A DNA stretch of 64,000 bases from an uncultured Acidobacteriota bacterium (GTDB taxonomy: Bacteria; Acidobacteriota; Thermoanaerobaculia; Multivoradales; DATKCC01): positions 151,754 to 215,753 of the forward strand of contig CAWIQD010000026.1 of assembly GCA_963837945.1 (NCBI GenBank), read 5' to 3'. The first letter of the stretch is position 1, and the number at the start of each line of letters is the position of its first letter. Position numbers and translations under genes: made by a program. The notes under the pieces are model-generated. The model had not been told where the DNA came from and did not search any database. It was given only the letters and a program-made list of their open reading frames with translations. Below are positions 7,009 through 55,708 of the stretch, piece by piece.

Positions 7009-8589
7009 TCAACCGGTGCGCATGAAGTGCCAGCGGCAGGCGCCCTCGACCGGCTGGAAGACCTCGGGGCGGATCGTCGGGCCGAAGTCGCGGAGAATCG
7101 ACGCCAGGTGCTCGCCGCGGGCGGCCCGCACGAGGGCCTCGGCGGCGCCCGAGCCGGCCTTGGTGATGTAGGTCTGCCAGATCGCCTGGCGGATCGAGAT
7201 GCCGCCCGAGAGGTTGACGTTGGGCAGGCGGGCGGCGCCCTTCTTGAGGATCGAGAGCTTCTCCTTCAAGCTCCGCTCGTCGTCCATCGGGGCGCGCTGC
7301 CAGGCGGTGTAGGGCTTGGGGATCAAGATGTTGACGCCGGCGTGGATCGAGCCGATGCGGCCGGTCTTCCTCGCCTCCTCGAGCATGACCGAGCGGCACT
7401 CGGCGACCAGCTCGAGGATCGCCTGGACGTCGTCGAGCGTCTCGTCCGGGATGCCGACCAGGAAGTAGAGCTTGAGCTGGGTGAAGCCGTGCTCGAAGAT
7501 CATCCGCACCTTCTCGAGCAAGAGGGCGTTGGGGATCGGCTTGTTGAGCTTCACCCGCAGCGCGTCGCTGCCGGTCTCCGGCGCCAGCGTGATCGAACGG
7601 TCGCCCGAGGCATGGAGGGCCGCGAGGACGCCGTCGGTGACCGCCGGGATGCGGATCGAGGAGACCGAGGTGCGGAAGCCGAGGCGGTTGCCCTCCTGGA
7701 GGATGCGCTCGATCTCCGGGTGGTCGCCGACGGCGGTGGCGACGAAACCGAGCTGGTCGGTGACCGGGCGCGCCCGCTCGAGCGAGGCGAGGATGTACTC
7801 CGCCGGATGCCAGCGGAACTTGCCCATGCCGAAGGTCGCCCAGCAGTACTTGCACTTCTCCGGGCAGCCGCGGGACATCTCGATCAGGAACTTGTCCGAG
7901 AACTCGGTGCGCGGGGTGACGATCGCCGTGGTCGGGAGGTACCCGGGGCGGCGCATCTGCTCGGCGGAGAGCTCGAGCTTGTGGAGCTTGTTCTCGCCGA
8001 AGGTGCCCACCAGGTCGTCGCCCTCCTCGGGACGGTGATGAGCGGGCACGTAGAAGCCCGGCCGGGAGGCCAGGCGCTCGAGGACGGCCTCGCGGCTCGC
8101 CTCCTCTTCGAGGGCTCCGAGCAGGTCGGGCAGCAGGTTCTCCGCCGCGCCGAGGGCGAAGACGTCGACCAGCTCGGCCATCGGCAGCGGATTGATCGCG
8201 GCGCACGAGCCGCCCATCACCACCAGCGGGTGCCAGGGTCCGCGCTCGGCGCGGCGCAGCGGAATGCCGCCCCGGTCGAGGAGCCGCAAGAGGCCGACGT
8301 AGTCCTCCTCGAAGGAGACCGAGAAAGCGACGCAGCCGAAGTCCGCGAGCGGCCGGCCGGACTCGACCGAGACCGGCGCGCCGGCGCCGTCGGTGAAGAA
8401 GCGCTCGGCAACCCAGCCCGGCCGGTCGGCCACCAGGCGCAGGGTGCGCTGGAACCCGAGGCTCGACATGCCGACGTGGTAGGTGTTGCCGTAGGCGAGG
8501 GCGAGCCGGAAGGCGCCGTGGCGCGGCAGCTCGTCGACCGGGCGCTCGTCCGCCCGGAACGGAGCCCAGTCCTGCACGGCCGCACTCAT
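7009..8589 (-). CDS. Radical SAM protein with N-terminal B12-binding-like domain (COG1032-type Fe-S oxidoreductase)
   Basis: CxxxCxxC motif CPEKCKYC in the core, ~200-aa N-terminal domain resembling cobalamin-binding domain of class B rSAM enzymes, 526 aa. Confidence 0.8.
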   Translation of the reverse strand: MSAAVQDWAPFRADERPVDELPRHGAFRLALAYGNTYHVGMSSLGFQRTLRLVADRPGWVAERFFTDGAGAPVSVESGRPLADFGCVAFSVSFEEDYVGLLRLLDRGGIPLRRAERGPWHPLVVMGGSCAAINPLPMAELVDVFALGAAENLLPDLLGALEEEASREAVLERLASRPGFYVPAHHRPEEGDDLVGTFGENKLHKLELSAEQMRRPGYLPTTAIVTPRTEFSDKFLIEMSRGCPEKCKYCWATFGMGKFRWHPAEYILASLERARPVTDQLGFVATAVGDHPEIERILQEGNRLGFRTSVSSIRIPAVTDGVLAALHASGDRSITLAPETGSDALRVKLNKPIPNALLLEKVRMIFEHGFTQLKLYFLVGIPDETLDDVQAILELVAECRSVMLEEARKTGRIGSIHAGVNILIPKPYTAWQRAPMDDERSLKEKLSILKKGAARLPNVNLSGGISIRQAIWQTYITKAGSGAAEALVRAARGEHLASILRDFGPTIRPEVFQPVEGACRWHFMRTG

Positions 8590-8677
8590 GGTGGAAGCTA
8601 GAACAGGCGGTTCACGGAGGCGAATTCCGCGCGGGGTTGCGCCTCACCGCCGCACCCCGGCTGGTAGAGTCCCGGCC

Positions 8678-9202
8678 ATGAGGCGGCACGTAGAGCGAGT
8701 GCTCGGAGCGCTCGAGCGCGAGGGCGTCCGATTCCTGGTCGTCGGAGGCGTCGCCGTCGTCCTGCACGGATATCTCCGCACGACGGTAGACCTCGACCTC
8801 GTGATCCAGCTCGATCGAGGAAACGTCCTGCATGCGGTCGACGCTTTCAAGCGGCTGGGCTTCCAACCGCGCGTGCCGGTTCAGCTCGAGAGCTTCGCCG
8901 ACGAGTCGGAGCGAGCGCGGTGGGTCCGCGAGAAGAACGCTCGCGTCTTCTCTCTTGGGCACCCGGACGAGCCGGGCTTTCTCGTCGACCTCTTCGTCGA
9001 GGAGCCGTTCGACTTCGACGAGCGGTACCACCGGGCCGCCATCGCGCTACTCGGCGAGGTGGAGGTCCGGGTGCTGGCGATCGAGGACCTGGTGGAGATG
9101 AAGCGTGCCGCGGGCCGGGCCCAGGACCTGGCCGACGTGGAAGCTCTTCTTCGGCTCCAAGTGGCGGAGGACGACACCGCCGGGCCGGGAAGGGACTCAT
9201 GA
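8678..9202 (+). CDS. Minimal nucleotidyltransferase-fold protein (Pol-beta superfamily; hG[GS]...DhDh motif GGVAVVLHGYLRTTVDLDLV)
   Basis: Trimmed to ATG 8678 (MRRHVERV). Conserved NTase motif. C-terminal AAGRAQDLADVEALLRL segment typical of stand-alone NTases of toxin-antitoxin-like modules. Confidence 0.6.
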   Translation: MRRHVERVLGALEREGVRFLVVGGVAVVLHGYLRTTVDLDLVIQLDRGNVLHAVDAFKRLGFQPRVPVQLESFADESERARWVREKNARVFSLGHPDEPGFLVDLFVEEPFDFDERYHRAAIALLGEVEVRVLAIEDLVEMKRAAGRAQDLADVEALLRLQVAEDDTAGPGRDS

Positions 9203-9390
9203 CCAGGGCGGTGCGAGGCGTGCCGGAACCGGACAGACCCGACACCTGGGACTTCGACCGGGCCCGCGACGCCGCGGTGCGCGAGGGGTTGCGCCTCACT
9301 CCGGCCCAGCGGCTGGCTTGGCTGGAGGAGACCCTCGAAGAGCTGAAGGATCTCCTGGGCCGGGCGCGGAAGAGCAAGGCGGTCCGGTGA
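9199..9390 (+). CDS. Small hypothetical protein (63 aa) overlapping upstream NTase gene by 4 bp (ATGA)
   Basis: ATG 9199 overlaps TGA of preceding gene. Sequence MTRAVRGVPEPDRPDTWDFDRARDAAVREGLRLTPAQRLAWLEETLEELKDLLGRARK. No HEPN Rx4-6H motif. Confidence 0.4.
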   Translation: MTRAVRGVPEPDRPDTWDFDRARDAAVREGLRLTPAQRLAWLEETLEELKDLLGRARKSKAVR

Positions 9391-9446
9391 GGCAGGAGCA
9401 GAGGCTGGCAGCGCCCACCGGGTGTGCCTCCGGTCCGGGCACCCGA

Positions 9447-10532
9447 TCAAAACACGTAATTCACCACGAAGCTCCAGCTCTTGTCGATGAACGTCTCCGG
9501 GCCGTGGTCGGGCTCGGTCTTCCAGTAGTCGTACTCGAGGATCAGGTTGAGGTTGTCCCGCAGGCTGTAGGTGACCCCCGGCAGGATCTCGGTCTCAGTG
9601 GCGGCGGCGCCGTCGTAGGCCACCTGGCTCCAGTTGAGCCGGAGCTGGAGCGGGGCGATCGGCCGCCAGCGGGTGCCCACCAGGTAGTAGGTCGAGTCGT
9701 CGTAGCCCAGGCGCGAGTGGGGGTGGGCGGCATCGGCCGGCTCGCCGCTCTGGTCGAGCACCTCGGCGTAGCCGATCCAGGGCCCGAGGGTGAGGGTCGC
9801 GTCGCCCGCCATCTGCCGGAGGTCAAAGCTCTCCGCCGCCACGTCGTGCCGGGCGATCCGGCCCGAGAGCCCCGAGAGGCCGATGGCGAGCGAGCGGCCG
9901 GGGCCGAAGCTCCAGGTCGGCGCCACCCGGCCGGTCACCGTGTTGCGCAGCTCCGCCGTGTCGTCGCTCTCGACGTCGCGGCCCGGGAGCGAGCCCGCGA
10001 CCTTGTCGTTGTTCACGAAGTACTGGGCCGAGTAGTCGAGGTGGAAGCCCTCGCCCGCCGGGCGGCTGCCGACGAGCTCGGCGCCGTAGTCCGGGTTGAG
10101 CTTCAGGCCGTTGAAGTACTGGACGTTGCCGAAGAAGGAGTCGTCCCAGAAGAGGCCCACCTTGCGGTAGACCTTGCCCACGTGGAGGTCGCCCACGGGG
10201 GTCTTCGCCCAGACGTAGGCCTCCTGGAACCAGACGTCGGAGACGAAGTAGGAACGCAGCTTCGAGTCGCGCGCCCGGGTCTGGACGTGGAGGCCGTAAC
10301 GCCCGTCCTCGGTGGCGCCGTCGAGGTTCAGCACGAAGGCGTAGATCTCGAATTTCTCGCGCGCGCCCTCGAGCTGCGGCAGATACTCGAAGAGGTAGAT
10401 CGAGCCGCCCAGGTCGAAGTGGGTCTCGAGCGTCGAGTCGGCGGCCAGGCCCGGGCGGGCGGCGGCGGCCGCGAGCAGGACGAGAAGGGCGGCGGCGGTC
10501 CGTGCGAGCGGGGATTTCGGTCGGCTGGGCAC
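9447..10532 (-). CDS. Outer-membrane beta-barrel protein (porin-like), last gene of phenolic-lipid operon
   Basis: Signal peptide (LLVLLAAAAARPGLA), alternating amphipathic beta-strand pattern, C-terminal aromatic residue (..NYVF). Confidence 0.7.
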   Translation of the reverse strand: MPSRPKSPLARTAAALLVLLAAAAARPGLAADSTLETHFDLGGSIYLFEYLPQLEGAREKFEIYAFVLNLDGATEDGRYGLHVQTRARDSKLRSYFVSDVWFQEAYVWAKTPVGDLHVGKVYRKVGLFWDDSFFGNVQYFNGLKLNPDYGAELVGSRPAGEGFHLDYSAQYFVNNDKVAGSLPGRDVESDDTAELRNTVTGRVAPTWSFGPGRSLAIGLSGLSGRIARHDVAAESFDLRQMAGDATLTLGPWIGYAEVLDQSGEPADAAHPHSRLGYDDSTYYLVGTRWRPIAPLQLRLNWSQVAYDGAAATETEILPGVTYSLRDNLNLILEYDYWKTEPDHGPETFIDKSWSFVVNYVF

Positions 10533-10675
10533 AGAGGTCTCCTCCGGGTTTCTCTGGCGGGTCGCGAGCAGGGTTCCGAGACCCTATACGAAAACGCGAG
10601 GCCGGCGGATCGCCCCGTCGCGCGCCGGGCCGCCCGAGGGCTACGGCGGCGTCGGCCGACGTCGAGGCGCTCCGC

Positions 10676-11863
10676 TCACGAGACGGCGAGCCGGCGGGCG
10701 AGGCGGAGGGCGCCGCCGACCCCGAGGTCCCGGGGGGCGAGAGCGCGGGCGTGGATCCCCAGCAGGCGCCCGAAGAGCTCGGGCTCGGCGGCCAGGGCGC
10801 CGACCATCCGGCGGCGCAGCCCGGGCCGGCGCTCGACGGCCAGGAGCAGGCGAATCAGGGTCTCCGGCAGGCGACGCAGGCGTCGGTGGGCGCGGGCGTA
10901 GGCGGCGAGCGGCTCGCGGCCGGCGCTCACGCGTCCCCCCTCCGCCTGGGCCGCGAGCACCGCCTCGACGAGGGCGAAGGCGTGGTGGAACGCCAGGGAG
11001 AGGCCCTCGCCGGTGATCGCGTCGAGGTAGCCGGAAGCGTCGCCCACCAGGGCGATCCGCCGTCGCACGACCGCCCGCGGGCGGCGCGCCAGGGGGCCGC
11101 AACCGAGGTCGCGGGAGTCCCTCGGGGCGCCGGCGAGACGCGCCGCGAGCGCCGGCACCCGTGCCAGGAGGGCGTCGAAATTGGCGCTCTCTCCGCTCCA
11201 CAGCATCGCCACCCCCACCCGCTCCCGACCCACGGGAGTGACGTAGGCCTCGCAGCGATCGGCCCAGTGGACCTCGACCCGGTCGCTCCAGGGCGCGATC
11301 CGGTAATGGCGGCGGACGCCGAAGCGGCCGCCTCCCCTGGGCCCCGGGGTCGGCCCGTCGGCACCCCGCCCCGCGAGCCCGGCCCAGGCGCGCACCTTCG
11401 AGCCCAGGCCGTCCGCGCCGACCAGCCAGCTCCCGACGTGGCGCGAGCCGGAGGCGGTCCGGACCGCGGGGCGCTCGCCGCGCCCCGTGCCGAGCTCGAG
11501 GACGGTCGCCCGCTCGCCCCAGACGAGGCGCGCGCCCAGGGCCTCGGCGCGCCCCGCCAGCGCCTCGTGGAGCGCCGTCCGGCGCACGCCGAGGCCGGCG
11601 GCGCCACCGGGGAAGCGGCCGTCGGCCACCGTGTCGCCGTCGAGATAGCGGATGCCGCGGAAGGGAGAGCAGTCCGCGGAGCCCGGAAGCTCGACCCCCA
11701 GCTCGGCGAGGCGCGCCAGTCCGTCGGGCATCAGCCCCTCGCCGCACGGCTTGTCGATCGGCGGCCGGTCGCGGTCGAGGACGGTGACGGAGAGGCCGGC
11801 GAGACGGGCCCGGATCGCCACCGCGAGCCCCGCCGGCCCGCCGCCGACGACCAGCAGGTCCAA
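10676..11863 (-). CDS. FAD-dependent oxidoreductase (geranylgeranyl-reductase/flavin monooxygenase family; SrsC-like hydroxylase candidate)
   Basis: Dinucleotide-binding motif LLVVGGGPAGLAVA, DxxxxGxG-like GDASG motif. Start set to TTG 11863 (GGGAGTGAG spacer TTG) rather than the Arg-rich ATG at 11968. Start uncertain. Confidence 0.75.
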   Translation of the reverse strand: MDLLVVGGGPAGLAVAIRARLAGLSVTVLDRDRPPIDKPCGEGLMPDGLARLAELGVELPGSADCSPFRGIRYLDGDTVADGRFPGGAAGLGVRRTALHEALAGRAEALGARLVWGERATVLELGTGRGERPAVRTASGSRHVGSWLVGADGLGSKVRAWAGLAGRGADGPTPGPRGGGRFGVRRHYRIAPWSDRVEVHWADRCEAYVTPVGRERVGVAMLWSGESANFDALLARVPALAARLAGAPRDSRDLGCGPLARRPRAVVRRRIALVGDASGYLDAITGEGLSLAFHHAFALVEAVLAAQAEGGRVSAGREPLAAYARAHRRLRRLPETLIRLLLAVERRPGLRRRMVGALAAEPELFGRLLGIHARALAPRDLGVGGALRLARRLAVS

Positions 11864-11864
11864 C

Positions 11865-13724
11865 TCACTCCCTTCCCGCTCGCCGGAGCCGGGCGTAGGC
11901 GAGGCTCGAGCGGGTGACCGCGGCGGCCAACCGCAGCGGGGTGACCGGCGCCGGCGCCTCGAGCTCACCGGCGAGCCAGAGGCGGAGCGCCTCGGCGCGG
12001 CGAAGCTTGCCCGAGGAGGTCCGGGGAAGGGTGCCGGGCTCGAGCACCGCGACCCGTCCCGCGGCGAGGCCGGTGCCGGCGATCACCGCTTCCCGGACCG
12101 CCGCCGGCAGCGCCCGGCGCACCGGCCTCGCGGCGCCGCGCGCCGCCTCCACCAGGATGAGCAGCTCCTCCTGGTCGGCCTCCTCGGGAAGGTAGCTCGC
12201 GGCGACCGCGCAGCCGGCGCGCGCGCCCGGAGCGGCGCAGGCGGCGGTCTCGATCTCCTCCGGCCCGTAGTTGCGACCGCGCAGGATGACCAGGTCCTTG
12301 GCGCGGCCGGTCAGGTAGAGCTCGCCGTCCGAGAGGAAGCCCACGTCGCCGGTGTCGAGCCAGCCCTCGACCACGACCCGGGCGGTCGCCTCCGGGCGGC
12401 CCAGGTAGCCGTCCATGAGCGACGGGCCGCGCACCCAGATCCGCCCCACCCGGCCGGCGGGCAGCGGGTGGCCGAGGTCGTCGCGCACCTCGAGCTCGAC
12501 GCCGGGGAGGGGAGAGCCCAGCGCCACCAGCTCGCGGCCGGCCGGTCGCCCGGGCCCGGCCGCCGGCGCGGCCCGGCGCGCCGCCTCGCCGGGTTCGAGC
12601 GAGCGGCGCTCGAAGCGCGCGGCGGTGAAGGGGCTGCCGAGCGGCGCGAAGGTCACCCCCAGGGAGGCCTCCGAGAGCCCGTAGACCGGGGTCAGGGCCT
12701 CGGCGCGGAAGCCCCAGCGCGCGAAGCGATCGGCGAAGGCGCGAAGCGTCCGGGCCGAGACCGCCTCGGCGCCGTTCAATGCCACCCGCCACGACGAGAG
12801 GTCGACACCGTCGAGCTCCTCGTCGCGGATCTTCTCGACGCACAGCCCGTAGGCGAAATTGGGGGCGGGCGAGACCATGGCGCGCGACCGGGAGATGGCG
12901 CGCAGCCAGGCCGCGGGCCGGCTCACGAAGACCTCCGGGCCGAGGAGCGTCAGGTCGGTCGCGAGCTCGAGCGCCGGGAAGACGCAGCCGATCAGCCCCA
13001 TGTCGTGGTAGAGCGGCAGCCACGAGACACCGGTGGGAGTGAGGCGGTCGGCGTCGGGCCAGAGCCCGTTGAGCGTCGTGACCTGGGCGAGGACCGCGCG
13101 GTGGGAGAGGGCGACCGGCTTGGGGTCGACGGTGGTGCCCGAGGAGAACTGGACGAGCGCCAGGTCGGAGGGCGCGGCCCGCCGGAGCGCGCCGGCTGCC
13201 GCCGGCTGCGGTAGCTCCTCCAGGGTGCGGCAGCCGAGCGCCGGCCGGGCGCGCTCGATCGCCTCCCCCAGGAGGCGGCGGACCCGCCGGTCGGCGAGCA
13301 CCAGGCGGGCCCCGGCGGCGGTGATCATGCGCGCGGTCCGGCGGTGGTACTCGACGAGGCGCCCCAGGCGCACCGGCGGGTAGAGCGGGACGGGGACGGC
13401 GCCCGCCACCAGGCTGCCGAAGAAGGCGGCGAAGAACTCCGGCGAGGTCGGATGGACCAGGGCGACCCGATCCCCTGGCTCGACGCCCGACGCGGCGAGG
13501 GCGGCGGCGGTGCGCCGCGCGCCCTCGACCACCGCGCGCCAGGGCAGGAAGGTCGCCCGCTCGCGCCGGTCGAGGAAGGTGAGACCGCGATCCTCGACCC
13601 CTGCGGCCCGCTCCAGGAGGTCGAGCAGGGTCTCGTCGGGCGCGGCAGAGCCCCCGTAGGGCAGGGGTCCGGGGCCGGCGAGCTCGACACTCGCGGCTCG
13701 CTTTGTGGGCTCAGGCGCCGTCAA
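11865..13724 (-). CDS. Fatty acyl-AMP ligase / acyl-CoA synthetase family (AMP-binding enzyme; FtpD-like)
   Basis: AMP-binding signature FSSGTTVDPKPV, downstream adenylate-forming core motifs (YGLSE, TGD, SSGKLRRA). 619 aa. Confidence 0.85.
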   Translation of the reverse strand: MTAPEPTKRAASVELAGPGPLPYGGSAAPDETLLDLLERAAGVEDRGLTFLDRRERATFLPWRAVVEGARRTAAALAASGVEPGDRVALVHPTSPEFFAAFFGSLVAGAVPVPLYPPVRLGRLVEYHRRTARMITAAGARLVLADRRVRRLLGEAIERARPALGCRTLEELPQPAAAGALRRAAPSDLALVQFSSGTTVDPKPVALSHRAVLAQVTTLNGLWPDADRLTPTGVSWLPLYHDMGLIGCVFPALELATDLTLLGPEVFVSRPAAWLRAISRSRAMVSPAPNFAYGLCVEKIRDEELDGVDLSSWRVALNGAEAVSARTLRAFADRFARWGFRAEALTPVYGLSEASLGVTFAPLGSPFTAARFERRSLEPGEAARRAAPAAGPGRPAGRELVALGSPLPGVELEVRDDLGHPLPAGRVGRIWVRGPSLMDGYLGRPEATARVVVEGWLDTGDVGFLSDGELYLTGRAKDLVILRGRNYGPEEIETAACAAPGARAGCAVAASYLPEEADQEELLILVEAARGAARPVRRALPAAVREAVIAGTGLAAGRVAVLEPGTLPRTSSGKLRRAEALRLWLAGELEAPAPVTPLRLAAAVTRSSLAYARLRRAGRE

Positions 13725-13956
13725 GCTTCCTCTCGACCGCGTCCACCAGGTCGCCGATGGTCGTGATCGCCTCCTCGTCCTGTGGGTCCAGGCAGACCTC
13801 GAACCGGTTCTCGACCTCGACCGCCAGGGTGAGGAGGCGGATCGAGTCGAGCGCCAGGTCTTCGACCAGTCGCATGGGGGGCTGGAGCGGGCGCTCCCAG
13901 GCCAGGTGCTCCCGCGCCACTTCGCGAATTCCCTGCAAGATCTCCTCCCGGCTCAC
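13711..13956 (-). CDS. Acyl carrier protein
   Basis: 81 aa. Phosphopantetheine attachment motif DLALDSIRLL. GTG start 13956 overlaps TGA of the upstream methyltransferase gene (GTGA). Confidence 0.8.
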   Translation of the reverse strand: MSREEILQGIREVAREHLAWERPLQPPMRLVEDLALDSIRLLTLAVEVENRFEVCLDPQDEEAITTIGDLVDAVERKLDGA

Positions 13957-14531
13957 CGCCCTCGCCCCCCGGCCGGCTCCGCGTCGTGCGGCACGGAGCG
14001 CGAGCTCGCCGCCCGCTCGAGCGCCGCGACTTCGACCCGGATGCGGTGGCCGAGGAGGAGGCCGTTGGCACCGGAGAAGAGGAGCGCGGTCACCCAGGCG
14101 GTGTGGACGAGCGGCAGGGCGGCGATCTCGAGCGCCACCGCCAGGTAGTTGGGGTGGTGGAGGTAGCGATAGGGCCCGGCGGTGACCGGGCTCGCCCCGG
14201 GGACGACGATCACCCGCGTCGTCCAGCGCTCGCCGAGGGCCTGGATCGCCCGGTAGCGAAGCGCCGACGCGATCGCCAGGACGAGGAGGGCCGCGGCCGC
14301 CAGGGCGGGCAGGAAGGGCCGGTCCAGGAGCCAGACCTCGGCCACGCACGAGACGAGAAACGCCGCGTGGAGAGCGACCATCCAGGGATAGTGCCCCGCC
14401 CCCACCTCCACCCCGCCCCGCGCCAGCAACCGCCGAGCATGCCCCCGCGCCAGCCGCAGCTCGGCAAGCCGCTCGAGCGCCACGATCCCGACGAGCACGG
14501 TGAAGAGGACCCGGGTATCGACCGTCGCCAT
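13953..14531 (-). CDS. Isoprenylcysteine carboxyl methyltransferase (ICMT)-family membrane methyltransferase (SrsB/FtpB-like)
   Basis: 192 aa, multiple TM segments, ICMT/PEMT-type C-terminal motif (RYLHHPNY...E). Positioned between type III PKS and ACP. Confidence 0.75.
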   Translation of the reverse strand: MATVDTRVLFTVLVGIVALERLAELRLARGHARRLLARGGVEVGAGHYPWMVALHAAFLVSCVAEVWLLDRPFLPALAAAALLVLAIASALRYRAIQALGERWTTRVIVVPGASPVTAGPYRYLHHPNYLAVALEIAALPLVHTAWVTALLFSGANGLLLGHRIRVEVAALERAASSRSVPHDAEPAGGRGR

Positions 14532-14655
14532 TGGCGTGGAATCCTATCCCCTCCCTTCCCCCCGCGAGGAGCCACAGGTCATCGGGCAATCCCGGCGGAG
14601 CGGGAGGCCCGCTCCGGCTGCGAACCCACCCTAGCCCTCGCCTCCCTCGCCCACC

Positions 14656-15729
14656 TCACCACTCCACCAGCACCAGCTCCGAGCAGAACCCCGGCCCCAT
14701 CGCCAGGATCAACCCCGCCGTTCCCGGCTCCGGCCGCCGGCTCGCCATCGTCTCCTCGAGGACCAGCAGCACCGACGTCGACGACAGGTTGCCCACCTCG
14801 CGCAGGCTCCGCCAGGTCACGTCGAGGGCCCCCGCGGGCAGCTCGAGCGCCTCCTCCATCGCCTCGAGCACCTTCGGCCCGCCCGGATGGCAGACCCAGG
14901 AGCCGATCGCGGCGCGGTCGAGGCCCTGGCCGGCGAGGAAGGCGTCGACGTCGTGGCGCAGGTGGCGCCGGACGACGTCCGGCACCTCCGCCGAGAGGAC
15001 GATCTGGAAGCCGCTCTCCGAGATGTCCCAACCCATGACCCGCTCCGAGTCGGGGTAGAAGACCGAGCGGGTGGCGACCACCCGGGGCCCCGGCCGGTCC
15101 CCGGCTCCGTTCCCCGGCAGCGCCCTCTCGGCGCCCGCCACCACCACCGCCGCGGCGCCGTCGCCGAACAGTCCGGAGGCGATCAGGTTCGGGATCGAGA
15201 GGTCCTGGAGCTGCATCGTCAGGCTGCACAGCTCGACCGACAGGAGCACCGCGACCTGGTCGGGGTAGGCCCGCACGTAGTCCGCCGCCCGCGCGATGCC
15301 GGCGGCGCCCGCCACGCAGCCGAGGCCGAAGATCGGCACCCGCTTGAGCCGCGGGGAGAGGCCCAGCCGGTTGATCAGCCGGGCGTCGAGCGACGGCGTG
15401 GCGATGCCGGTCACCGAGACCGAGATCAGGCAGTCGACCTCCTCGGGGGCGAGGCCGGCGCGGCCGAGGGCGTCCGAGAGCGCCGCGCCGCCCACCTCCT
15501 GGGCCACCCGGATCCAGGCGTCGTTGGCCTGGCCCCAGGTCTCGAGGGCCTCGTACTCGTCGATCGGCAGGGCGAGATGACGGCCGCCGACCAGGACGTT
15601 TCGGTGGAGCTGCTCGAGGCGGGCCAGGTTGTGGTGGCGCCTCGCCCAGTGGCGCCGCAGCGTCGCCAGCAGGGTCTCCTGGTCGTAGTAGTGGGGAGGG
15701 AAGGCGTGGCCGACGGCGACGACTCTCAC
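14656..15729 (-). CDS. Type III polyketide synthase (chalcone/stilbene synthase superfamily; alkylresorcinol/alkylpyrone synthase-like)
   Basis: Catalytic Cys context GLGCVAG, CHPGGPKVLEAMEEAL (His) and GNLSSTSVLLVLEE (Asn) motifs. Start set to GTG 15729 overlapping upstream TGA. Confidence 0.9.
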   Translation of the reverse strand: MRVVAVGHAFPPHYYDQETLLATLRRHWARRHHNLARLEQLHRNVLVGGRHLALPIDEYEALETWGQANDAWIRVAQEVGGAALSDALGRAGLAPEEVDCLISVSVTGIATPSLDARLINRLGLSPRLKRVPIFGLGCVAGAAGIARAADYVRAYPDQVAVLLSVELCSLTMQLQDLSIPNLIASGLFGDGAAAVVVAGAERALPGNGAGDRPGPRVVATRSVFYPDSERVMGWDISESGFQIVLSAEVPDVVRRHLRHDVDAFLAGQGLDRAAIGSWVCHPGGPKVLEAMEEALELPAGALDVTWRSLREVGNLSSTSVLLVLEETMASRRPEPGTAGLILAMGPGFCSELVLVEW

Positions 15730-16109
15730 CCGGCCTCCCCTTCGGGTCCGGCCACCGCCGCCATCAGCAGGCCGCAGACCGTGTAGAGGCCGAACCAGCC
15801 GATCACCAGGGTCCACCAGGCGTGGGCCGAGAGGGTCGAGGCCCCGGCCACCGTCAGGGCGAGCACGGGCCCGCGAAAGACCCATGCGGTCCAGGCCGCG
15901 GCGAGACCCGCCGCCCAGCGGTTGAGATGACGCTCGCGGACCAGCGCGAAGAGCGCCACGAGGCCCAGCCCCTCGAGCACCCAGAGGCCGAGCAGGTAGG
16001 GCGCGGGCAGCGCCTGGGGGCGCGCCAGGTCGAGGGCCTCGACGCCGAAGTGGAACAGCGCCTGAGCCAGGATCACGAGGGGCAGGGCCAGCACGAGAAA
16101 GCGGACCAA
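15726..16109 (-). CDS. Small integral membrane protein (4 predicted TM helices), first gene of PKS operon
   Basis: 127 aa, hydrophobic. Stop overlaps PKS start (GTGA). TTG start inferred. Confidence 0.5.
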   Translation of the reverse strand: MVRFLVLALPLVILAQALFHFGVEALDLARPQALPAPYLLGLWVLEGLGLVALFALVRERHLNRWAAGLAAAWTAWVFRGPVLALTVAGASTLSAHAWWTLVIGWFGLYTVCGLLMAAVAGPEGEAG

Positions 16110-16150
16110 GGTCCGGCGATGATATCTCCCTTCCCTCAGCTGCTAAAGTC

Positions 16151-17203
16151 GTGACATCTCCCTCCGGCCCGCCGGTTTCCCCGGCTCCGGGCGGCCCGGA
16201 CCTCCGCGCGCCCGGGCCGAGGCGGACCGATGATCCGCTCGCCTGCGCAGGCCGTATAGGGAACTGGATGACCGATCAGGCCGGAATCGTGACGAATGAG
16301 CCGAGTGTCTCGGGGAGCAGAGTGAACGGGAGGGGGCGTCCCCTTCCCCCCCGTGGGGTGGGAAGGGGATCGAGGGGTTGCGGGGGGCATCCGGTCAATC
16401 GCGACACGCCGCCCGCCGGAACCTGCTCGGCGGCCCCCGGGCGCCCGGCCCTCCTGGTCTTCACCCGGGGCGCGGACGCCGAGGGCCATCGCCGCCGACT
16501 CCTGCCGCGGCGCTTCGGCGACCGGGAGCGGGAGCTCTACCGGCTCTGCCTCGACGAGGCCCTGGCGGCCGCCCGTGGCGCCGGATGCCGGCTCGCGGTC
16601 TCCTCGCCGGCGCCCCTGGCGCTGCCGGAGGACGCCCAGCCGATCCCGCAGCGGGGCACCGGCTTCGGCGAGCGCCTCGCGGGGGCGTTCGACGAGGCTT
16701 TGCGCCCGGCCGGCGACGGCGGGCCCGGCGCGCTGGTCGCGGTCGGCACCGACACCCCCGGCCTGCGCCCGGCGCACGTCGAGCAAGCGCTCGCGCTCCT
16801 CGGCAACGGCCCGGGCGCCGAGCGGCGGGTGGTGGTCGGCCCGTCGCCCGACGGCGGCCTCTACCTGCTCGCCGCCCGGTGCCCGCTGGGCAGCCTGATC
16901 CGCCGCGTCTCCTGGTGCCGCAAGGGAACGCTCGCGAGCCTGCTCGCGACGCTTCGCGCCGCCGGCCTGGCGGTCGAGCTGCTCGAGCCGCTCGCCGACC
17001 TCGATCGCCCGGCGGACCTCGAGCGCTGGATCGCCCGCCGGGCGGCCGGCCGGGAAGGCCCGCTCGCCCGCCTGGCGGCGGCCCTCGGCCGGCTCCTCGC
17101 CGCTCTGCGCAGGCCCGCGGCGCTCTCGCCGCCGGTCCGCCCCCACCTCGCCTTCCTACCCGTGCCGGGCGGCCGCTCGCCGCCGCGCGGACGGCGGCAC
17201 TGA
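16151..17203 (+). CDS. DUF2064 family protein (MobA-like NTP-transferase fold; arsenosugar-type biosynthesis-associated glycosyltransferase-like)
   Basis: Conserved block ALLVFTRG...GFGERLAGAFDEAL...VAVGTDTPGL...VVVGPSPDGGLYLLA. True start uncertain (possibly ATG 16378 with an indel at the CCCCC run ~16430, or GTG 16349). Confidence 0.65.
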   Translation: MTSPSGPPVSPAPGGPDLRAPGPRRTDDPLACAGRIGNWMTDQAGIVTNEPSVSGSRVNGRGRPLPPRGVGRGSRGCGGHPVNRDTPPAGTCSAAPGRPALLVFTRGADAEGHRRRLLPRRFGDRERELYRLCLDEALAAARGAGCRLAVSSPAPLALPEDAQPIPQRGTGFGERLAGAFDEALRPAGDGGPGALVAVGTDTPGLRPAHVEQALALLGNGPGAERRVVVGPSPDGGLYLLAARCPLGSLIRRVSWCRKGTLASLLATLRAAGLAVELLEPLADLDRPADLERWIARRAAGREGPLARLAAALGRLLAALRRPAALSPPVRPHLAFLPVPGGRSPPRGRRH

Positions 17204-17327
17204 CCACCGAATCCGAAGCGACCTTCCGGACCGGCGTCGAAGCCGGCGAGACCGGGGGGTCTCGCCGCCCGCCGGGCGCGCCGGCCGGGCACGGCGAGCG
17301 AGAGAAACGACCAGGGGGAACACGACG

Positions 17328-18404
17328 GTGAGACCGCGCAGATCGCAGGTGGGGGCGGCGCTGCTGCTCCTCGCAGCAGGGACCGGGGCGTGCGCCCGGC
17401 CAGGGGGGGACGACGGGGCGGCGAAGGCGTCGCCGCCGGCTACGTCCGACGTCGTCGTCCAGTACGACTGCATCCCGAACTACGCCAACTGGGGGGCGGT
17501 CACCGACCTCTACCAGAAGACGACCGGCGTGAGGGTGCCGCCGGACATGAAGGGCTCCTCGGCGGCGATGGCCGCCCTCGAGGCGGAGAAGGCGAACCCG
17601 CAGGCGGACACCGCCTACTACTCCGGGGCGATCGGCTACGAGGCGGCGCGGCGCGGTCTGCACCAGGCCTACGAGCCGGCCGGCTGGGACCAGATCCCCG
17701 ACGGCCTGAAGGATCCGGACGGCAAGTGGTGGACGGTGCACACCGGCGCGATCGCGCTCGTCGTCAACACCGCGGCGCTCGGCGACAAGCCGGTGCCGAA
17801 GAGCTGGCAGGACCTGCTCCGCCCCGAGTACAAGGGGCTCGTCGCCTACGACGACCCGACCTGGGGCGGGACGGCGTACACCTTCGTCTACGGCATCAAT
17901 CACCTCCTGGGAGGCGACGCGCACGACTTCGAGCCCGGCCTCGCCTACCTCGAGAAGCTCGACGCCAACGTCCAGTCCTACCCGCGGGAGTCGATCTACA
18001 ACGACGTGCTGCGGGGCGAGATCCCGATCTGGATCAACGCCGACGGCAACGGCTACAAGATGCGCTACGTCGACGGCGGCCCGATCGAGGTGGTGATCCC
18101 GGAGGAAGGGTCGGTCTCGATGCCGCTGGTCATGGGGCTGGTCGCCGGCGCGCCGCACGAGGCGGCGGCCAAGCGCTATCTCGACTGGCTGCTCACCGCC
18201 CCGGCGCAGGCCGAGTTCGCCCGCTCCTACTTCCGGCCGGTGGTGCCGGGCGCGATGCCCGCGGAGGTGGCGAAGAACTTCCTGCCACTGGCCGACTACG
18301 CGCGGGTCCAGAACCTCGACCTGGGCGAGATGGCCGCCGCCTCGGACCCGCTCAAGCGCGCCTGGCAGGAGCGGATCCGCCACGGGGAGGGGGCGCCCGA
18401 GTGA
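17328..18404 (+). CDS. ABC transporter periplasmic substrate-binding lipoprotein (family 1, Fe3+/thiamine/polyamine-type)
   Basis: Lipobox LLAAGTGAC, SBP_bac_1-like sequence. Confidence 0.8.
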   Translation: MRPRRSQVGAALLLLAAGTGACARPGGDDGAAKASPPATSDVVVQYDCIPNYANWGAVTDLYQKTTGVRVPPDMKGSSAAMAALEAEKANPQADTAYYSGAIGYEAARRGLHQAYEPAGWDQIPDGLKDPDGKWWTVHTGAIALVVNTAALGDKPVPKSWQDLLRPEYKGLVAYDDPTWGGTAYTFVYGINHLLGGDAHDFEPGLAYLEKLDANVQSYPRESIYNDVLRGEIPIWINADGNGYKMRYVDGGPIEVVIPEEGSVSMPLVMGLVAGAPHEAAAKRYLDWLLTAPAQAEFARSYFRPVVPGAMPAEVAKNFLPLADYARVQNLDLGEMAAASDPLKRAWQERIRHGEGAPE

Positions 18405-19306
18405 GATCCGCCGGGTCGCGGGGGGCGAGGCATCTCGGTGCCCGGCCGCTGGTGGGGGCGCTTCTGTGCCTGCCGCTCGGTCTCTTCCTGCTCGCGGCCT
18501 TCGTGGTGCCGCTCGCCGGGCTCCTGCCCGACAGCCTGCACGCCACCCCGGGGATCCTGGGGCGGCCGGCGAGCGCGGCGGGAGCCGGCGCGGCGGCGGG
18601 TCTCGGCAACTATGCCCGGGCGCTCGCCGCGGCGGGCGAGCTCGCCGCCTTCCGCAACAGCCTGGTCCTCTCGCTGTCGGTGGCCGCGGCTTCGATCGTG
18701 CTCTGCCTGCCGCCGGCCTGGATGCTCGCCCGCCACCGCTTCCCCGGCAGAGCGGCCCTGCGCACCGTGCTCGCCCTGCCGCTCACCTTCTCCGGGGTGA
18801 TCGTCGGGTTCCTCGCGATCCTGGTCCTCGGGCGCCTCGGGCTGCTGCCGGCGGTGCTTCGGGTGCTCACCGGCCGGCCGCTCCTCGCCGGCAGCGCCTA
18901 CACCCTGGGCGGGCTGGTGGCGGCCTACGTCTACTTCGAGGTGCCGCGCGCCACGCTGACCCTCGAGGCCGCCTTCGGGCGCCTCGACCCGGACCAGGAG
19001 CGCGCCGCCGCCACCCTCGGGGCGAGCTGGCTCGAGCGGCTCTTGCGGATCACCCTGCCGCAGCTCTGGCCGGCCCTGGTCTCCACCCTGGCGGTGACCT
19101 TCGCCGCCTCGATGGGCTCGTTCGGGGTGGCCCTGATCCTGGCCCGCAAGCTCGAGCTCGTGCCGCTCGCGATCTACACCGAGTACACCGGCTTCCTGGA
19201 CTTGGGGTACGCCGCGGCGCTCTGCCTGCTGCTCGCCGGCGCCACGCTGGCGGCGGCCGGCCTGCTGCGCTGGCTGACCCGCGGCGAGGAGTGGATCTAC
19301 GGATGA
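18401..19306 (+). CDS. ABC transporter permease (first of two)
   Basis: GTG 18401 overlaps SBP stop (GTGA). Multi-TM, permease EAA-like loop region. Confidence 0.75.
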   Translation: MRSAGSRGARHLGARPLVGALLCLPLGLFLLAAFVVPLAGLLPDSLHATPGILGRPASAAGAGAAAGLGNYARALAAAGELAAFRNSLVLSLSVAAASIVLCLPPAWMLARHRFPGRAALRTVLALPLTFSGVIVGFLAILVLGRLGLLPAVLRVLTGRPLLAGSAYTLGGLVAAYVYFEVPRATLTLEAAFGRLDPDQERAAATLGASWLERLLRITLPQLWPALVSTLAVTFAASMGSFGVALILARKLELVPLAIYTEYTGFLDLGYAAALCLLLAGATLAAAGLLRWLTRGEEWIYG

Positions 19307-20136
19307 GGGGCCGGCCGAGCGCAGGCGGGCGCGCGGGCCGGCGCCTGGGAGTGGCCTACTGCTGGGCCCTCGGAGCGCTGGTGCTCCTGCCCGTGGCGGT
19401 GGTGGTCGCCGGCGCCTTCCTGCCCGCCGCCCGGCTGGGCATGGCGAGCGAGGGCTGGGTGCGGGGGCGCGAGGCGGCGGTGTCGCTCAAGTGGTTCGCC
19501 TACGTGCTCCATCTCTACGGGGGATCGCTCCTCTACTCGGCGGCGCTCGCGGCCGTGGCGGTGAGCGCCGGCCTGGCGCTCTGCCTGCCCGCGGCCTACG
19601 GCCTGGTGCGGCACCCGTTCCCGGGCGCCAAGCTCCTGGAGGAGCTGGCGCTCCTACCGCTCGCCGTGCCCGGGATCGCGGTGGCGATCGCGCTCATCGA
19701 GACCTACGCCCTGGTGCGCGGCGCCTGGTGGTTCGTGGCGGTGGGCCACCTCCTCTACACCGTGCCTCTGCTGCTGCGCACCCTGCTCCACGCACTCCGC
19801 GGCGAGGCCTTCGACGAGGAACGCGCGGCGGCCACCCTGGGCGCCGGCCCGCTCGCTCGCTTCGCCCGGATCACCTGGCCGCGGCTGCGCCGGCCGGCGA
19901 GCCTGGGAGCGCTGATCGTGGCGGCGGTCTCCTGGGGCGAGTTCAACGCCAGCTTCCTCCTCGCGACGCCGCTCCACCAGCCCTACCCGGCGGCGCTGTT
20001 CGCGACCTACACCTCGAACAGCTTCGCGGTCTCCTCGGCCGCGACCACGCTCTTTTTGGCTGGCATCCTGCCGCTGCTCGTCGCCATCGAGCGGCTGGGC
20101 CGGAGCGAGCTGATCGCCGTCAGGCAGGGGGCGTGA
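19303..20136 (+). CDS. ABC transporter permease (second)
   Basis: ATG 19303 overlaps upstream stop (ATGA). 277 aa, 6 TM. Confidence 0.75.
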   Translation: MRGRPSAGGRAGRRLGVAYCWALGALVLLPVAVVVAGAFLPAARLGMASEGWVRGREAAVSLKWFAYVLHLYGGSLLYSAALAAVAVSAGLALCLPAAYGLVRHPFPGAKLLEELALLPLAVPGIAVAIALIETYALVRGAWWFVAVGHLLYTVPLLLRTLLHALRGEAFDEERAAATLGAGPLARFARITWPRLRRPASLGALIVAAVSWGEFNASFLLATPLHQPYPAALFATYTSNSFAVSSAATTLFLAGILPLLVAIERLGRSELIAVRQGA

Positions 20137-22378: not shown

Positions 22379-22424
22379 CGGCCGCGCTCCGTCTCGGCCG
22401 GCGGCTCGCGCGGAGGGACCGACC

Positions 22425-23480: not shown

Positions 23481-23505
23481 GGCCGGGCGATAGACTCGCC
23501 CGCGC

Positions 23506-32956: not shown

Positions 32957-33300
32957 GCGGCGAACTGCGCCGGCGAGAAACCACGCGCTCCCGCGGACTG
33001 CCACCTCGGCGGGTGAAAGAACGACCCGCGCTTCGGCGGGGGGAGAGGGGGGATCGGCGTTCGGTGCTCTCCTCGCCGTAGACTGCGCCGGCGAGAAACC
33101 ACGCGCTCCCGCGGAATGCTACCTCGGCGGGTGGAACTGAGATCCGCCTTTCGGCGAGGGGAGAAGAGGGGGGAACGGCGCGGTCGGACTTCGTAGCGCA
33201 TGGCCCCGGCCGGTTACCCACATGTCGACCGGCAACCCCGCCTGAAGCGGCCGAGCTCTGTCTCGGCCGGCCGAACGGTGTGCGGGCACCGAGCGCCTCG
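32957..33300. repeat. Intergenic repeat locus A: two tandem ~115-bp copies (32957-33070, 33072-33185) plus a cggccgag..ctcggccg hairpin segment (33248-33290); same family as locus B at 50384-50800
   Basis: Direct comparison: actgcgccggcgagaaaccacgcgctcccgcgga[c/a]tgc[c/t]acctcggcgggtg.. duplicated. gaagcggccgagctctg[t/c]ctcggccgg shared with 50531-50560. Confidence 0.7.

Positions 33301-55616: not shown

Positions 55617-55708
<92 letters not shown>

What the first reader, a model, noticed from the sequence alone, without database searches (positions are those of the whole stretch)
9447..16109. Complete ftp/srs-like phenolic-lipid operon: type III PKS + ICMT-like methyltransferase + ACP + FAAL + flavin oxidoreductase + OM barrel
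Seven co-directional genes linked by 4-bp GTGA/TGA overlaps (membrane protein-PKS, MT-ACP) or short gaps. The enzyme set is a small membrane protein, type III PKS (catalytic Cys/His/Asn motifs), ICMT-family membrane methyltransferase, ACP, fatty acyl-AMP ligase, FAD-dependent oxidoreductase, then an OM beta-barrel. This reproduces the logic of the Myxococcus ftp operon (FAAL loads a fatty acid on ACP as starter for the type III PKS) and the Streptomyces srsABC operon (PKS + membrane methyltransferase + flavoprotein hydroxylase giving alkylresorcinols/alkylquinones). The OM barrel suggests export or envelope insertion in a diderm. The product is probably a methylated, hydroxylated alkylresorcinol/alkylpyrone-type lipid.
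Basis: partly seen in the sequence, partly recalled or inferred. Interest (0 to 1): 0.7.

Follow-up and report, generated by a model that had tools for sequence, protein, structure and literature searches.

The report
Fatty-acid-primed phenolic lipid gene cluster
This is a real but ordinary gene cluster for making a long-chain phenolic lipid, the same kind already described in Myxococcus (ftp) and Streptomyces (srs), here found in an uncultured acidobacterium with one extra small membrane protein of unknown role; the neighbouring outer-membrane porin probably does not belong to it.

Summary
Seven co-directional minus-strand genes fill 9447-16109 with the stated domains and the two GTGA overlaps. 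The core is an ftp-type cluster. It has a type III PKS (Cys138/His281/Asn314; closest solved relative M. tuberculosis PKS11, E 2e-102), an ICMT-family membrane methyltransferase, a stand-alone ACP, a fatty acyl-AMP ligase with the FAAL-specific residues, and a flavoprotein. The order PKS-MT-ACP-FAAL-flavoprotein recurs in 19 of 68 related loci with enough flank, including Myxococcaceae. The host is an uncultured Thermoanaerobaculia-like acidobacterium, and the cluster lies about 26 kb from dnaA.

Two corrections. The porin follows the cluster only in the nearest relatives. More distant porin homologues sit between a DUF2064 gene and an ABC-importer binding protein, both of which flank the cluster here, so it is more likely an uptake partner than an exporter. 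The small 4-helix membrane protein is a genuine conserved partner. It belongs to a narrow unannotated family (72 representatives among 1.84 billion) and lay directly upstream of this PKS wherever examined.

The product is probably an O-methylated alkylresorcinol or alkylquinone; an alkylpyrone is the main rival.

Verdict: new member of a known kind, modest interest.

The parts
15726..16109 (-). Small integral membrane protein (127 aa, four predicted transmembrane helices). It belongs to an unannotated family and its stop overlaps the PKS start (GTGA).
14656..15729 (-). Type III polyketide synthase (357 aa), FtpA/PKS11-like, predicted alkylresorcinol or alkylresorcylic acid synthase.
   Evidence: Pfam Chal_sti_synt_N and Chal_sti_synt_C. 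The best PDB match is M. tuberculosis PKS11 (4jao), E 2.4e-102 over the full length. The triad is C138/H281/N314, and W234 occupies the cyclisation-specificity position (PMC5916927). A 100% identical protein, P0001, comes from a 280-kb NCBI/ENA contig.
13953..14531 (-). ICMT-family integral membrane methyltransferase (192 aa), in the SrsB/FtpB position.
   Evidence: Pfam ICMT 1.5e-24 and PEMT 1.1e-6. Three hydrophobic blocks are predicted. SrsB homologues are annotated as isoprenylcysteine carboxyl methyltransferase (PMC6669644).
13711..13956 (-). Stand-alone acyl carrier protein (81 aa). Its start overlaps the methyltransferase stop (GTGA).
   Evidence: Pfam PP-binding 3.2e-6. NCBIfam ACP models down to 3.7e-12, all below their curated cut-offs. 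The D-S motif places the attachment serine at Ser38.
11865..13724 (-). Fatty acyl-AMP ligase (619 aa if the TTG at 13724 is the start), in the FtpD position.
   Evidence: The best NCBIfam match is 'fatty acyl-AMP ligase' NF006624, 456 bits (cut-off 600). The best PDB match is E. coli FAAL 3pbk, E 2.3e-90, followed by other FAALs; CoA ligases match only the C-terminal part. Residues equivalent to EcFAAL W224/P226/M231/F279 are conserved, and the FAAL-specific helix and insertion segments align without deletion (PMC8460268).
10676..11863 (-). FAD-dependent oxidoreductase (395 aa from the TTG at 11863), in the SrsC/FtpE position; presumed ring hydroxylase.
   Evidence: Pfam FAD_binding_3 2.5e-14. 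The best NCBIfam match is the geranylgeranyl reductase superfamily model, 86 bits, below its cut-off. The best PDB matches are aromatic polyketide hydroxylases, E about 1e-8. The GxGxxG, GADG and GDA motifs are present. It is 46-55% identical to the gene that follows PKS-ICMT in srs-like three-gene loci L022, L023, L029 and L045.
9447..10532 (-). Outer-membrane porin (361 aa). It is adjacent and co-directional but probably not a functional member of the cluster.
   Evidence: Pfam Porin_4 5e-9. It has a hydrophobic N-terminal signal-like segment and a C-terminal Phe. It follows the cluster only in L001/L003 and the fragment L087. Homologues in L083, L084 and L086 lie between DUF2064 and the binding-protein gene, with no PKS genes nearby. 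It has its own GGAGGAG ribosome-binding site after a 143-nt gap.
16119..16146 (-). The single sigma-70-like promoter match in the region. Its -10 element ends 10 nt before the TTG start of the membrane-protein gene.
   Evidence: one match, against 0.0 expected from shuffles. This is a consensus match only, and promoter rules for this phylum are not established.

Best explanation
This is an ftp-type phenolic-lipid biosynthetic cluster in an uncultured Thermoanaerobaculia-like acidobacterium.

Proposed mechanism:
1. The fatty acyl-AMP ligase adenylates a long-chain fatty acid and transfers it to the phosphopantetheine arm on Ser38 of the stand-alone ACP, bypassing CoA.
2. The type III PKS takes the acyl chain from the ACP onto Cys138 and extends it with three malonyl (or methylmalonyl) units.
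3. The PKS closes the ring by aldol condensation, giving an alkylresorcylic acid or alkylresorcinol.
4. The ICMT-family membrane methyltransferase O-methylates the ring.
5. The flavoprotein hydroxylates the ring, so the end product is a methoxy-alkylhydroquinone or alkylbenzoquinone that stays in the membrane.

The small four-helix membrane protein encoded just upstream is a lineage-specific partner. It most plausibly holds the soluble PKS at the membrane or receives its hydrophobic product.

Shown here: the identities of the six proteins, their catalytic and family-specific residues, and the conservation of gene order. Inferred from the characterised Myxococcus ftp and Streptomyces srs systems: the order of steps, the starter, the product and the role of the membrane protein.
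For: - Domain and family matches for all enzymes.
- PKS triad C138/H281/N314, with Trp234 at the position reported as essential for resorcinol formation in ArsB and conserved in FtpA, SrsA, PKS10 and PKS11 (PMC5916927).
- FAAL-specific residues and segments are present (PMC8460268).
- The order PKS-ICMT-ACP-FAAL-flavoprotein recurs in 19 of 68 loci with at least 5.5 kb of downstream flank. These include a Myxococcaceae MAG (L032: PKS 63%, MT 56%, ACP 40%, FAAL 54%, flavoprotein 45% identity, with 4-nt gene overlaps).
- Literature: FtpA accepts an acyl-ACP made by the FAAL FtpD (PMC5707447). MxFAAL loads MxACP (PMC8460268). SrsA and FtpA products are further oxidised to alkylquinones (PMC10896814). 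SrsB-type enzymes are ICMT-like and SrsC-type enzymes are monooxygenases (PMC6669644).
- Relatives with PKS-ICMT-flavoprotein only (L022, L023, L029, L045) show that the ftp form equals the srs form plus an ACP-FAAL pair.
Against: - No product chemistry is available.
- The closest solved homologue, PKS11, is named an alpha-pyrone synthase, and the conserved Myxococcota type III PKS cluster is catalogued as an alkylpyrone cluster (PMC12766979). The ring type is therefore uncertain.
- The flavoprotein scores best against a geranylgeranyl-reductase superfamily model (86 bits, below cut-off) and carries a KPCGEG motif that I recall from that family. Hydroxylase activity is inferred from gene position, not from a diagnostic sequence feature.
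- The 124-nt PKS-to-MT gap, larger or interrupted in relatives, means co-transcription is not shown.
- No phosphopantetheinyl transferase gene was looked for.
- The role of the membrane protein is pure inference.
Confidence: 0.78

Rival explanations
1. The enzymes are the same, but the PKS lactonises instead of performing the aldol closure. The end product is then an O-methylated long-chain alkylpyrone rather than an alkylresorcinol or alkylquinone.
For: [quoted passage not shown] The conserved type III PKS cluster of Myxococcota, present in M. xanthus DK1622, matches a characterised alkylpyrone cluster, citing Hug et al. 2019 (PMC12766979). From my own knowledge, the ICMT-type BpsB of Bacillus subtilis methylates alkylpyrones (Nakano 2009).
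Against: Trp234 sits at the position reported to specify resorcinol formation (PMC5916927). A ring hydroxylase makes most sense for a resorcinol-to-quinone route (PMC10896814). Type III PKSs of this group often make both ring types in vitro, so the two readings are not exclusive.
Confidence: 0.25
2. One reading: all seven genes form one operon, and the porin exports the lipid or inserts it into the outer membrane.
For: The porin is co-directional and only 143 nt downstream. The arrangement is kept in the closest relative L001/L003 and in fragment L087.
Against: Only 1 of 67 related loci with at least 7.5 kb of downstream flank has it. In six relatives the flavoprotein gene is followed directly by the B12-radical-SAM gene that lies beyond the porin here. 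Porin homologues at 57-67% identity sit between DUF2064 and a PhnS-like binding-protein gene with no PKS genes nearby. General porins pass hydrophilic solutes, not C15-C20 lipids (established knowledge). The porin has its own ribosome-binding site, and a GC-rich hairpin followed by a U-run lies in the gap, although that fold is no better than shuffles.
Confidence: 0.06
3. The flavoprotein is a reductase of the geranylgeranyl-reductase type, acting for example on the alkyl chain or on a quinone. In that case no quinone is made by ring hydroxylation.
For: The best NCBIfam hit is TIGR02032 GG-red-SF, covering profile positions 1-288 of 297 at 86 bits, against 59 bits for the Ubi hydroxylase family. 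A KPCGEG motif is present. The digeranylgeranylglycerophospholipid reductase 3oz2 is among the PDB hits.
Against: The score is below that family's cut-off of 158.8. The top PDB hits are aromatic polyketide hydroxylases. The gene is homologous (46-55%) to the third gene of srs-like three-gene loci, and that position is occupied by a monooxygenase in characterised systems (PMC6669644).
Confidence: 0.12
4. The condensing enzyme is a FabH-type KAS III and the locus is ordinary fatty-acid initiation or activation.
For: There are weak secondary Pfam/NCBIfam hits to ACP_syn_III and FabH models.
Against: FabH models score 55-58 bits against cut-offs of 249-292, while a type III PKS model scores 204 bits. 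The 60 best of 103 PDB matches (E up to 1e-10) are all type III PKSs. The FAAL, ICMT and flavoprotein context does not fit fatty-acid initiation.
Confidence: 0.01

Closest known systems
Myxococcus xanthus ftp operon (FtpA type III PKS, FtpB methyltransferase, FtpC ACP, FtpD FAAL, FtpE flavoprotein; Hayashi et al. 2011, ChemBioChem 12:2166)
   Same: It has the same five protein types. The gene order is the same as in a Myxococcaceae MAG locus (L032), with 40-63% identity. FAAL-to-ACP-to-type III PKS priming is the documented logic of the system (PMC5707447, PMC8460268).
   Different: The phylum differs (Acidobacteriota, Thermoanaerobaculia-like). A conserved small membrane-protein gene sits directly upstream of the PKS here, and no homologue was detected in the Myxococcota loci. 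I could not read the 2011 paper or obtain M. xanthus sequences, so the gene-letter assignments rest on my own knowledge and on citing papers.
Streptomyces griseus srsABC and the mycobacterial pks10 three-gene operon (alkylresorcinol to methoxy-alkylquinone, 'polyketide quinones')
   Same: Both combine a type III PKS, an ICMT-like membrane methyltransferase and a flavoprotein (PMC6669644, PMC5916927). Close relatives of the window PKS occur in exactly this three-gene form (L022, L023, L029, L045).
   Different: The srs and pks10 operons have no ACP or FAAL; their starter comes from acyl-CoA. SrsA incorporates methylmalonyl-CoA, and extender choice here is unknown.
Mycobacterium tuberculosis PKS11 (PDB 4jao)
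   Same: It is the closest solved structure, with a full-length alignment (E 2.4e-102), an identical triad spacing and a conserved Trp230 equivalent.
   Different: PKS11 lies in a cluster with type I PKS genes (PMC5916927), not next to a stand-alone ACP and FAAL.
Cyanobacterial hidABC and planctomycetal methyltransferase-oxidoreductase-type III PKS operons
   Same: They also make alkylresorcinols, followed by methylation and a FAD-dependent oxidoreductase (PMC10896814).
   Different: The gene order is reversed (MT-oxidoreductase-PKS) and there is no ACP or FAAL. The planctomycetal methyltransferase appears to C-methylate.

Membership tests
Type III polyketide synthase (chalcone synthase-like) | Chal_sti_synt N- and C-terminal domains above Pfam gathering scores | tested here: met
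   61.5 and 67.9 bits against cut-offs of 27.
Type III polyketide synthase (chalcone synthase-like) | Cys-His-Asn catalytic triad at the canonical aligned positions | tested here: met
   C138, H281 and N314 align to PKS11 C138, H277 and N310.
Type III polyketide synthase (chalcone synthase-like) | Closer to type III PKSs than to FabH/KAS III | tested here: met
   The DpgA model scores 204 bits against 58 bits for FabH. The 60 best of 103 PDB matches (E up to 1e-10) are all type III PKSs.
Alkylresorcinol/alkylresorcylic acid synthase subgroup | Trp at the ArsB W281-equivalent position that favours aldol (resorcinol) closure | tested here: met
   W234 aligns to PKS11 W230. The equivalence of positions is taken from PMC5916927.
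Alkylresorcinol/alkylresorcylic acid synthase subgroup | Resorcinol-type product from a long-chain starter | not testable with these tools
   This needs an enzyme assay or heterologous expression with LC-MS.
Fatty acyl-AMP ligase (FAAL) | Best matches are FAALs rather than fatty acyl-CoA ligases | tested here: met
   NF006624 FAAL scores 456 bits and is the top model, although below its cut-off of 600. The top full-length PDB matches are FAALs or FAAL-like loading enzymes (E. coli FAAL 3pbk first, then FadD23, FadD32 and FadD28 among others), while CoA ligases align only from about residue 390.
Fatty acyl-AMP ligase (FAAL) | CoA-pocket-blocking residues (EcFAAL W224, M231, F279), the FAAL-specific helix and the FAAL-specific insertion | tested here: met
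   W235, M242 and F290 are conserved, together with P237 (equivalent to P226). The helix segment (PEVFVSR against TQDFAMR) and the segment where, from my own knowledge, the FAAL-specific insertion lies align to 3pbk without deletion (features from PMC8460268).
Fatty acyl-AMP ligase (FAAL) | Transfers acyl-AMP to holo-ACP and rejects CoA | not testable with these tools
   This is a biochemical assay.
ftp-type cluster (FAAL/ACP-primed type III PKS with tailoring enzymes) | Co-located type III PKS, ICMT-like methyltransferase, stand-alone ACP, FAAL and flavoprotein, in that order on one strand | tested here: met
   The same order occurs in 19 of 68 related loci, including Myxococcaceae L032.
ftp-type cluster (FAAL/ACP-primed type III PKS with tailoring enzymes) | Orthology to the characterised M. 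xanthus FtpA-E proteins themselves | not tested
   No M. xanthus sequence was available in the tools. A Myxococcaceae MAG served as proxy.
ICMT-family methyltransferase (PF04140), SrsB/BpsB type | ICMT domain above threshold in a polytopic membrane protein next to a type III PKS | tested here: met
   86.7 bits against a cut-off of 24, with three hydrophobic blocks. The substrate (phenol O-methylation) was not tested.
Class A flavoprotein aromatic hydroxylase (SrsC/FtpE type) | Diagnostic assignment to hydroxylases rather than to the related geranylgeranyl reductases | tested here: inconclusive
   FAD_binding_3 is above its cut-off, and the GxGxxG, GADG and GDA motifs are present. However, the best NCBIfam model is GG-red-SF, below its cut-off, and PDB hits to hydroxylases are weak (E about 1e-8).
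Porin as a component of the biosynthetic cluster | Conserved co-location with the PKS genes across related genomes | tested here: not met
   It is present in 1 of 67 loci with enough flank. Homologues elsewhere are linked to DUF2064 and an ABC binding protein instead.

The most novel reading that the evidence does not exclude
The small four-helix membrane protein may be a previously unrecognised dedicated partner of a type III PKS, acting as a membrane dock or product acceptor. In this acidobacterial lineage the ftp-like genes may also work together with the conserved divergent block (radical SAM, metallophosphoesterase, ferrochelatase, often DUF2064). The product would then be a redox-active polyketide quinone tied to haem or respiratory function, rather than a simple envelope lipid.
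Probability: 0.12. Interest if true: 0.55.

Novelty: new member of a known kind. Interest (0 to 1): 0.3.

Why it matters
The finding extends the FAAL/ACP-primed type III PKS pathway, characterised only in Myxococcus, to uncultured Thermoanaerobaculia-like Acidobacteriota, where it is widespread and syntenic. I found no paper describing it in that phylum.

Related products act as alternative respiratory electron carriers in mycobacteria and as membrane components giving antibiotic tolerance in Streptomyces (PMC5916927, PMC10896814). The cluster is therefore a reasonable candidate for membrane or redox adaptation in an abundant, poorly known soil and sediment group.

The only new element is the conserved unannotated membrane protein. 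It offers a small, testable question about how a soluble type III PKS hands a very hydrophobic product to the membrane.

Nothing here overturns current understanding.

Tried and rejected
- **Exact-sequence look-up.** Looking up the window PKS and its 100% identical database entry P0001 found no contig on record. Context therefore came from relatives.
- **Remote homology of the membrane protein.** An exhaustive profile search found 72 representatives and no link to a named family.
- **RNA elements.** There is no Rfam family in or near the cluster. Folds of the two intergenic gaps are no more stable than shuffles (z -0.22 and -0.34). The scan's terminator-like hits lie inside coding sequence and match the chance expectation.
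- **Literature.** Hayashi 2011, Nakano 2012 and Anand 2015 are not held. One review held no mention of ftp or srs. Statements about those systems rest on citing papers and my own knowledge.
- **Upstream genes in other lineages.** A crude scan found assorted unrelated ORFs upstream of the PKS and no equivalent small membrane protein. The scan is too rough to prove absence.
- **Rejected readings.** A FabH/KAS III identity for the PKS, an ordinary FadD identity for the ligase, and a mobile-element or viral origin. The locus is chromosomal, about 26 kb from dnaA.

Full report
**What is there**

The window has about 73% G+C. Between 9447 and 16109 the minus strand carries seven ORFs with third-position GC of 0.90-0.97. 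The many overlapping ORFs on other frames have 0.57-0.82 and are artefacts of composition.

Read from the sequence, the genes are:

| Gene | Coordinates (minus strand) | Length | Start |
|---|---|---|---|
| Small membrane protein | 16109-15726 | 127 aa | TTG |
| Type III PKS | 15729-14656 | 357 aa | GTG |
| ICMT-family methyltransferase | 14531-13953 | 192 aa | ATG |
| ACP | 13956-13711 | 81 aa | GTG |
| Acyl-AMP ligase | 13724-11865 | 619 aa | TTG |
| Flavoprotein | 11863-10676 | 395 aa | TTG |
| Porin | 10532-9447 | 361 aa | GTG |

The junctions measure -4, +124, -4, -14, +1 and +143 nt.

**Identity of each protein**

*PKS.*
- Pfam gives Chal_sti_synt_N and Chal_sti_synt_C.
- The best solved relative is M. 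tuberculosis PKS11 (E 2.4e-102, full length), followed by CylI and other type III PKSs.
- FabH models score 55-58 bits against cut-offs near 250-290, while a type III PKS model scores 204 bits.
- The triad is Cys138/His281/Asn314.
- Trp234 aligns with PKS11 Trp230. PMC5916927 reports this position as essential for resorcinol formation in ArsB and conserved in FtpA, SrsA, PKS10 and PKS11.

*Ligase.*
- Its best family model is 'fatty acyl-AMP ligase', and its best structures are FAALs or FAAL-like loading enzymes: E. coli FAAL 3pbk (E 2.3e-90), then among others FadD23, FadD32 and FadD28. CoA ligases match only the C-terminal part.
- It keeps the residues that block the CoA pocket in EcFAAL: W224, M231 and F279 correspond here to W235, M242 and F290. 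The conserved Pro226 is here P237.
- The FAAL-specific helix and insertion segments align without deletion.

*Other proteins.*
- The ACP has its D-S motif at Ser38.
- The methyltransferase is a polytopic ICMT-family protein (1.5e-24), the family to which SrsB-type enzymes are assigned (PMC6669644).
- The flavoprotein has the FAD-binding motifs of the PHBH fold. Its assignment to hydroxylases rather than the related geranylgeranyl reductases is ambiguous by sequence.

**Host and conservation**

The PKS is 100% identical to a protein from a 280-kb NCBI/ENA contig. Its relatives at 73-90% identity are from MAGs labelled Thermoanaerobaculia or Acidobacteriota. The window also holds dnaA, recF, gyrB and gyrA, so the cluster is chromosomal and about 26 kb from dnaA.

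I fetched 80 loci from species-representative genomes and ten more from metagenome collections. I searched the seven proteins against them with tblastn.

Among 68 loci with at least 5.5 kb downstream of the PKS:
- 19 have ICMT, ACP, FAAL and flavoprotein in the same order.
- 3 lack only the flavoprotein.
- 28 have only the flavoprotein homologue.
- 11 have none of these.

The 19 include a Myxococcaceae MAG (L032) and other MAGs labelled Proteobacteria or Sulfomarinibacteraceae. In L032, ACP, FAAL and flavoprotein overlap by 4 nt.

Close relatives of the PKS (64-71% identity) also occur as PKS-ICMT-flavoprotein, the srsABC arrangement, with flavoproteins 46-55% identical to the one here (L022, L023, L029, L045). 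The ftp form therefore looks like the srs form with an ACP-FAAL pair inserted, and both forms occur among relatives of this PKS at 64-78% identity.

**The porin**

The porin follows the cluster only in the closest relative (L001/L003, PKS 90%) and in one fragment (L087). In six other relatives the flavoprotein gene is followed directly by the B12-binding radical SAM gene. In the window that gene lies beyond the porin and a nucleotidyltransferase-like gene.

A scan for porin homologues found four more distant ones (57-67% identity). In three of them (L083, L084, L086) the porin lies between a DUF2064 gene and a PhnS-like substrate-binding protein gene on the same strand. In the fourth (L085) it is followed by the binding-protein gene. 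No PKS genes are within reach in any of them.

The window has both partner genes on the other side of the cluster. DUF2064 (about 16268-17203) and the binding protein (17328-18404) head a plus-strand row that continues with two permeases, an ATPase, a radical SAM protein, a metallophosphoesterase, ferrochelatase and an MFS transporter. The porin is therefore more likely the outer-membrane partner of that importer than an exporter of a C15-C20 lipid.

**The small membrane protein**

Its homologues start with a conserved M-x-R-F-L-V-L-A-L-P, which supports the TTG at 16109.

The family is narrow. There are 51 hits in the word-indexed search, none with a name or Pfam domain, and 72 representatives among 1.84 billion in the exhaustive profile search. 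No domain above threshold was found in ten divergent or long members.

The gene is found upstream of the PKS on the same strand in 20 of 83 loci, all with PKS identity of at least 68%. Members only 45-47% identical are still in that place.

**Mechanism**

By analogy with documented systems, I propose the following:
1. The FAAL adenylates a long-chain fatty acid and loads it on the ACP. FtpD/FtpC do this (PMC5707447), and MxFAAL loads MxACP (PMC8460268).
2. The PKS uses the acyl-ACP as starter and adds three C2 units.
3. The PKS closes a resorcinol ring.
4. The ICMT-like enzyme O-methylates the ring.
5. The flavoprotein hydroxylates it, yielding a hydroquinone/quinone. PMC10896814 states that SrsA and FtpA products are further oxidised to alkylquinones.

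The protein identities and gene order are shown here. The steps and the product are inferred.

The main rival is an alkylpyrone product. PKS11 is named a pyrone synthase, and the conserved Myxococcota type III PKS cluster is catalogued as an alkylpyrone cluster (PMC12766979). A second uncertainty is whether the flavoprotein hydroxylates or reduces.

**Context worth noting**

In the Thermoanaerobaculia/Holophagales-labelled relatives, the cluster is always divergent from a block of radical SAM and metallophosphoesterase genes. That block often includes DUF2064, and in more distant members a Pyr_redox-like protein, ferrochelatase and DUF2911. One locus (L015) keeps this block, the membrane protein and the PKS, but lacks the four downstream genes.

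This adjacency is restricted to one clade, so inherited synteny cannot be separated from functional linkage with the data at hand.

**Novelty and verdict**

The kind of system is known: ftp in Myxococcus, and srs or pks10 in actinobacteria. The instance is in a phylum where I found no description of it. It carries one conserved, unannotated accessory gene. I file it as a new member of a known kind, with modest interest of 0.3.

The most novel reading not excluded is that the membrane protein is a dedicated PKS partner and that the cluster works with the neighbouring radical SAM/haem block. I give this about 12%.

Noticed in passing
window 16268-24571 (+): A plus-strand gene row runs divergently from the cluster. 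It holds DUF2064 (TIGR04282-like, 82 bits, below cut-off), a PhnS-like binding protein, two permeases, an ABC ATPase, a radical SAM protein (best model 'Rv1681 family', 113 bits, below cut-off), Metallophos_2 and ferrochelatase hemH, followed by an MFS transporter at 24997-26535. The radical SAM + Metallophos_2 pair (often with DUF2064) is divergent from the PKS cluster in at least 13 related loci. The ABC transporter is inserted only in the window's closest relatives. Its function is unknown.
   Followed up: partly
L083, L084, L086 (metagenome loci); window 9447-10532: Homologues of the porin lie in the order DUF2064, porin, substrate-binding protein on one strand, without PKS genes. This suggests an outer-membrane channel plus ABC importer unit whose parts are split to either side of the PKS cluster in the window.
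   Followed up: partly
window 8588-9202 (+) and about 9200-9400: A DUF6036/AbiEii-like nucleotidyltransferase gene, with a 63-aa neighbour in relative L001, sits between the porin and the B12-radical-SAM gene. It could be a small toxin-antitoxin-like insertion. Together with the porin it separates the flavoprotein gene from the radical SAM gene, which are adjacent in other relatives.
   Followed up: no
window 7009-8589 (-): A B12-binding radical SAM protein (TIGR03960-like, 203 bits, below cut-off; Radical_SAM_N2) lies directly downstream of the flavoprotein gene on the same strand in six relatives (L004, L009, L011, L014, L016, L017). It may be an additional tailoring enzyme, or merely syntenic.
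   Followed up: partly
window 33300-43400 and 52700-62400: This is a chromosomal origin-type neighbourhood. It holds dnaA (42025-43347, -), recF, gyrB, gyrA, a probable dnaN fragment, yidC, probable rnpA, parA, SRP RNA (54841-54939) and two tRNA-Ser genes (55617-55816). Cumulative GC skew turns upward from about 30 kb.
   Followed up: partly
L002 11192-12616; L001 11068-11556: The PKS-to-methyltransferase junction is variable. It is 124 nt in the window and about 490 nt in the nearest relative, and it holds an opposite-strand SLFN/AlbA_2-HATPase gene in L002. The membrane protein-PKS pair and the MT-ACP-FAAL-flavoprotein group may be separate transcription units.
   Followed up: no
L015 (Holophagales-labelled MAG): This locus keeps the radical SAM, Metallophos, DUF2064, membrane protein and PKS genes, but has no detectable ICMT, ACP, FAAL or flavoprotein homologue within 10 kb downstream. 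The membrane protein-PKS pair therefore persists without the tailoring and priming genes.
   Followed up: partly
window 16109 versus database protein P0121: The public 122-aa version of the membrane protein starts at an internal GTG. The conserved N-terminus in homologues indicates that the TTG five codons upstream is the true start.
   Followed up: yes
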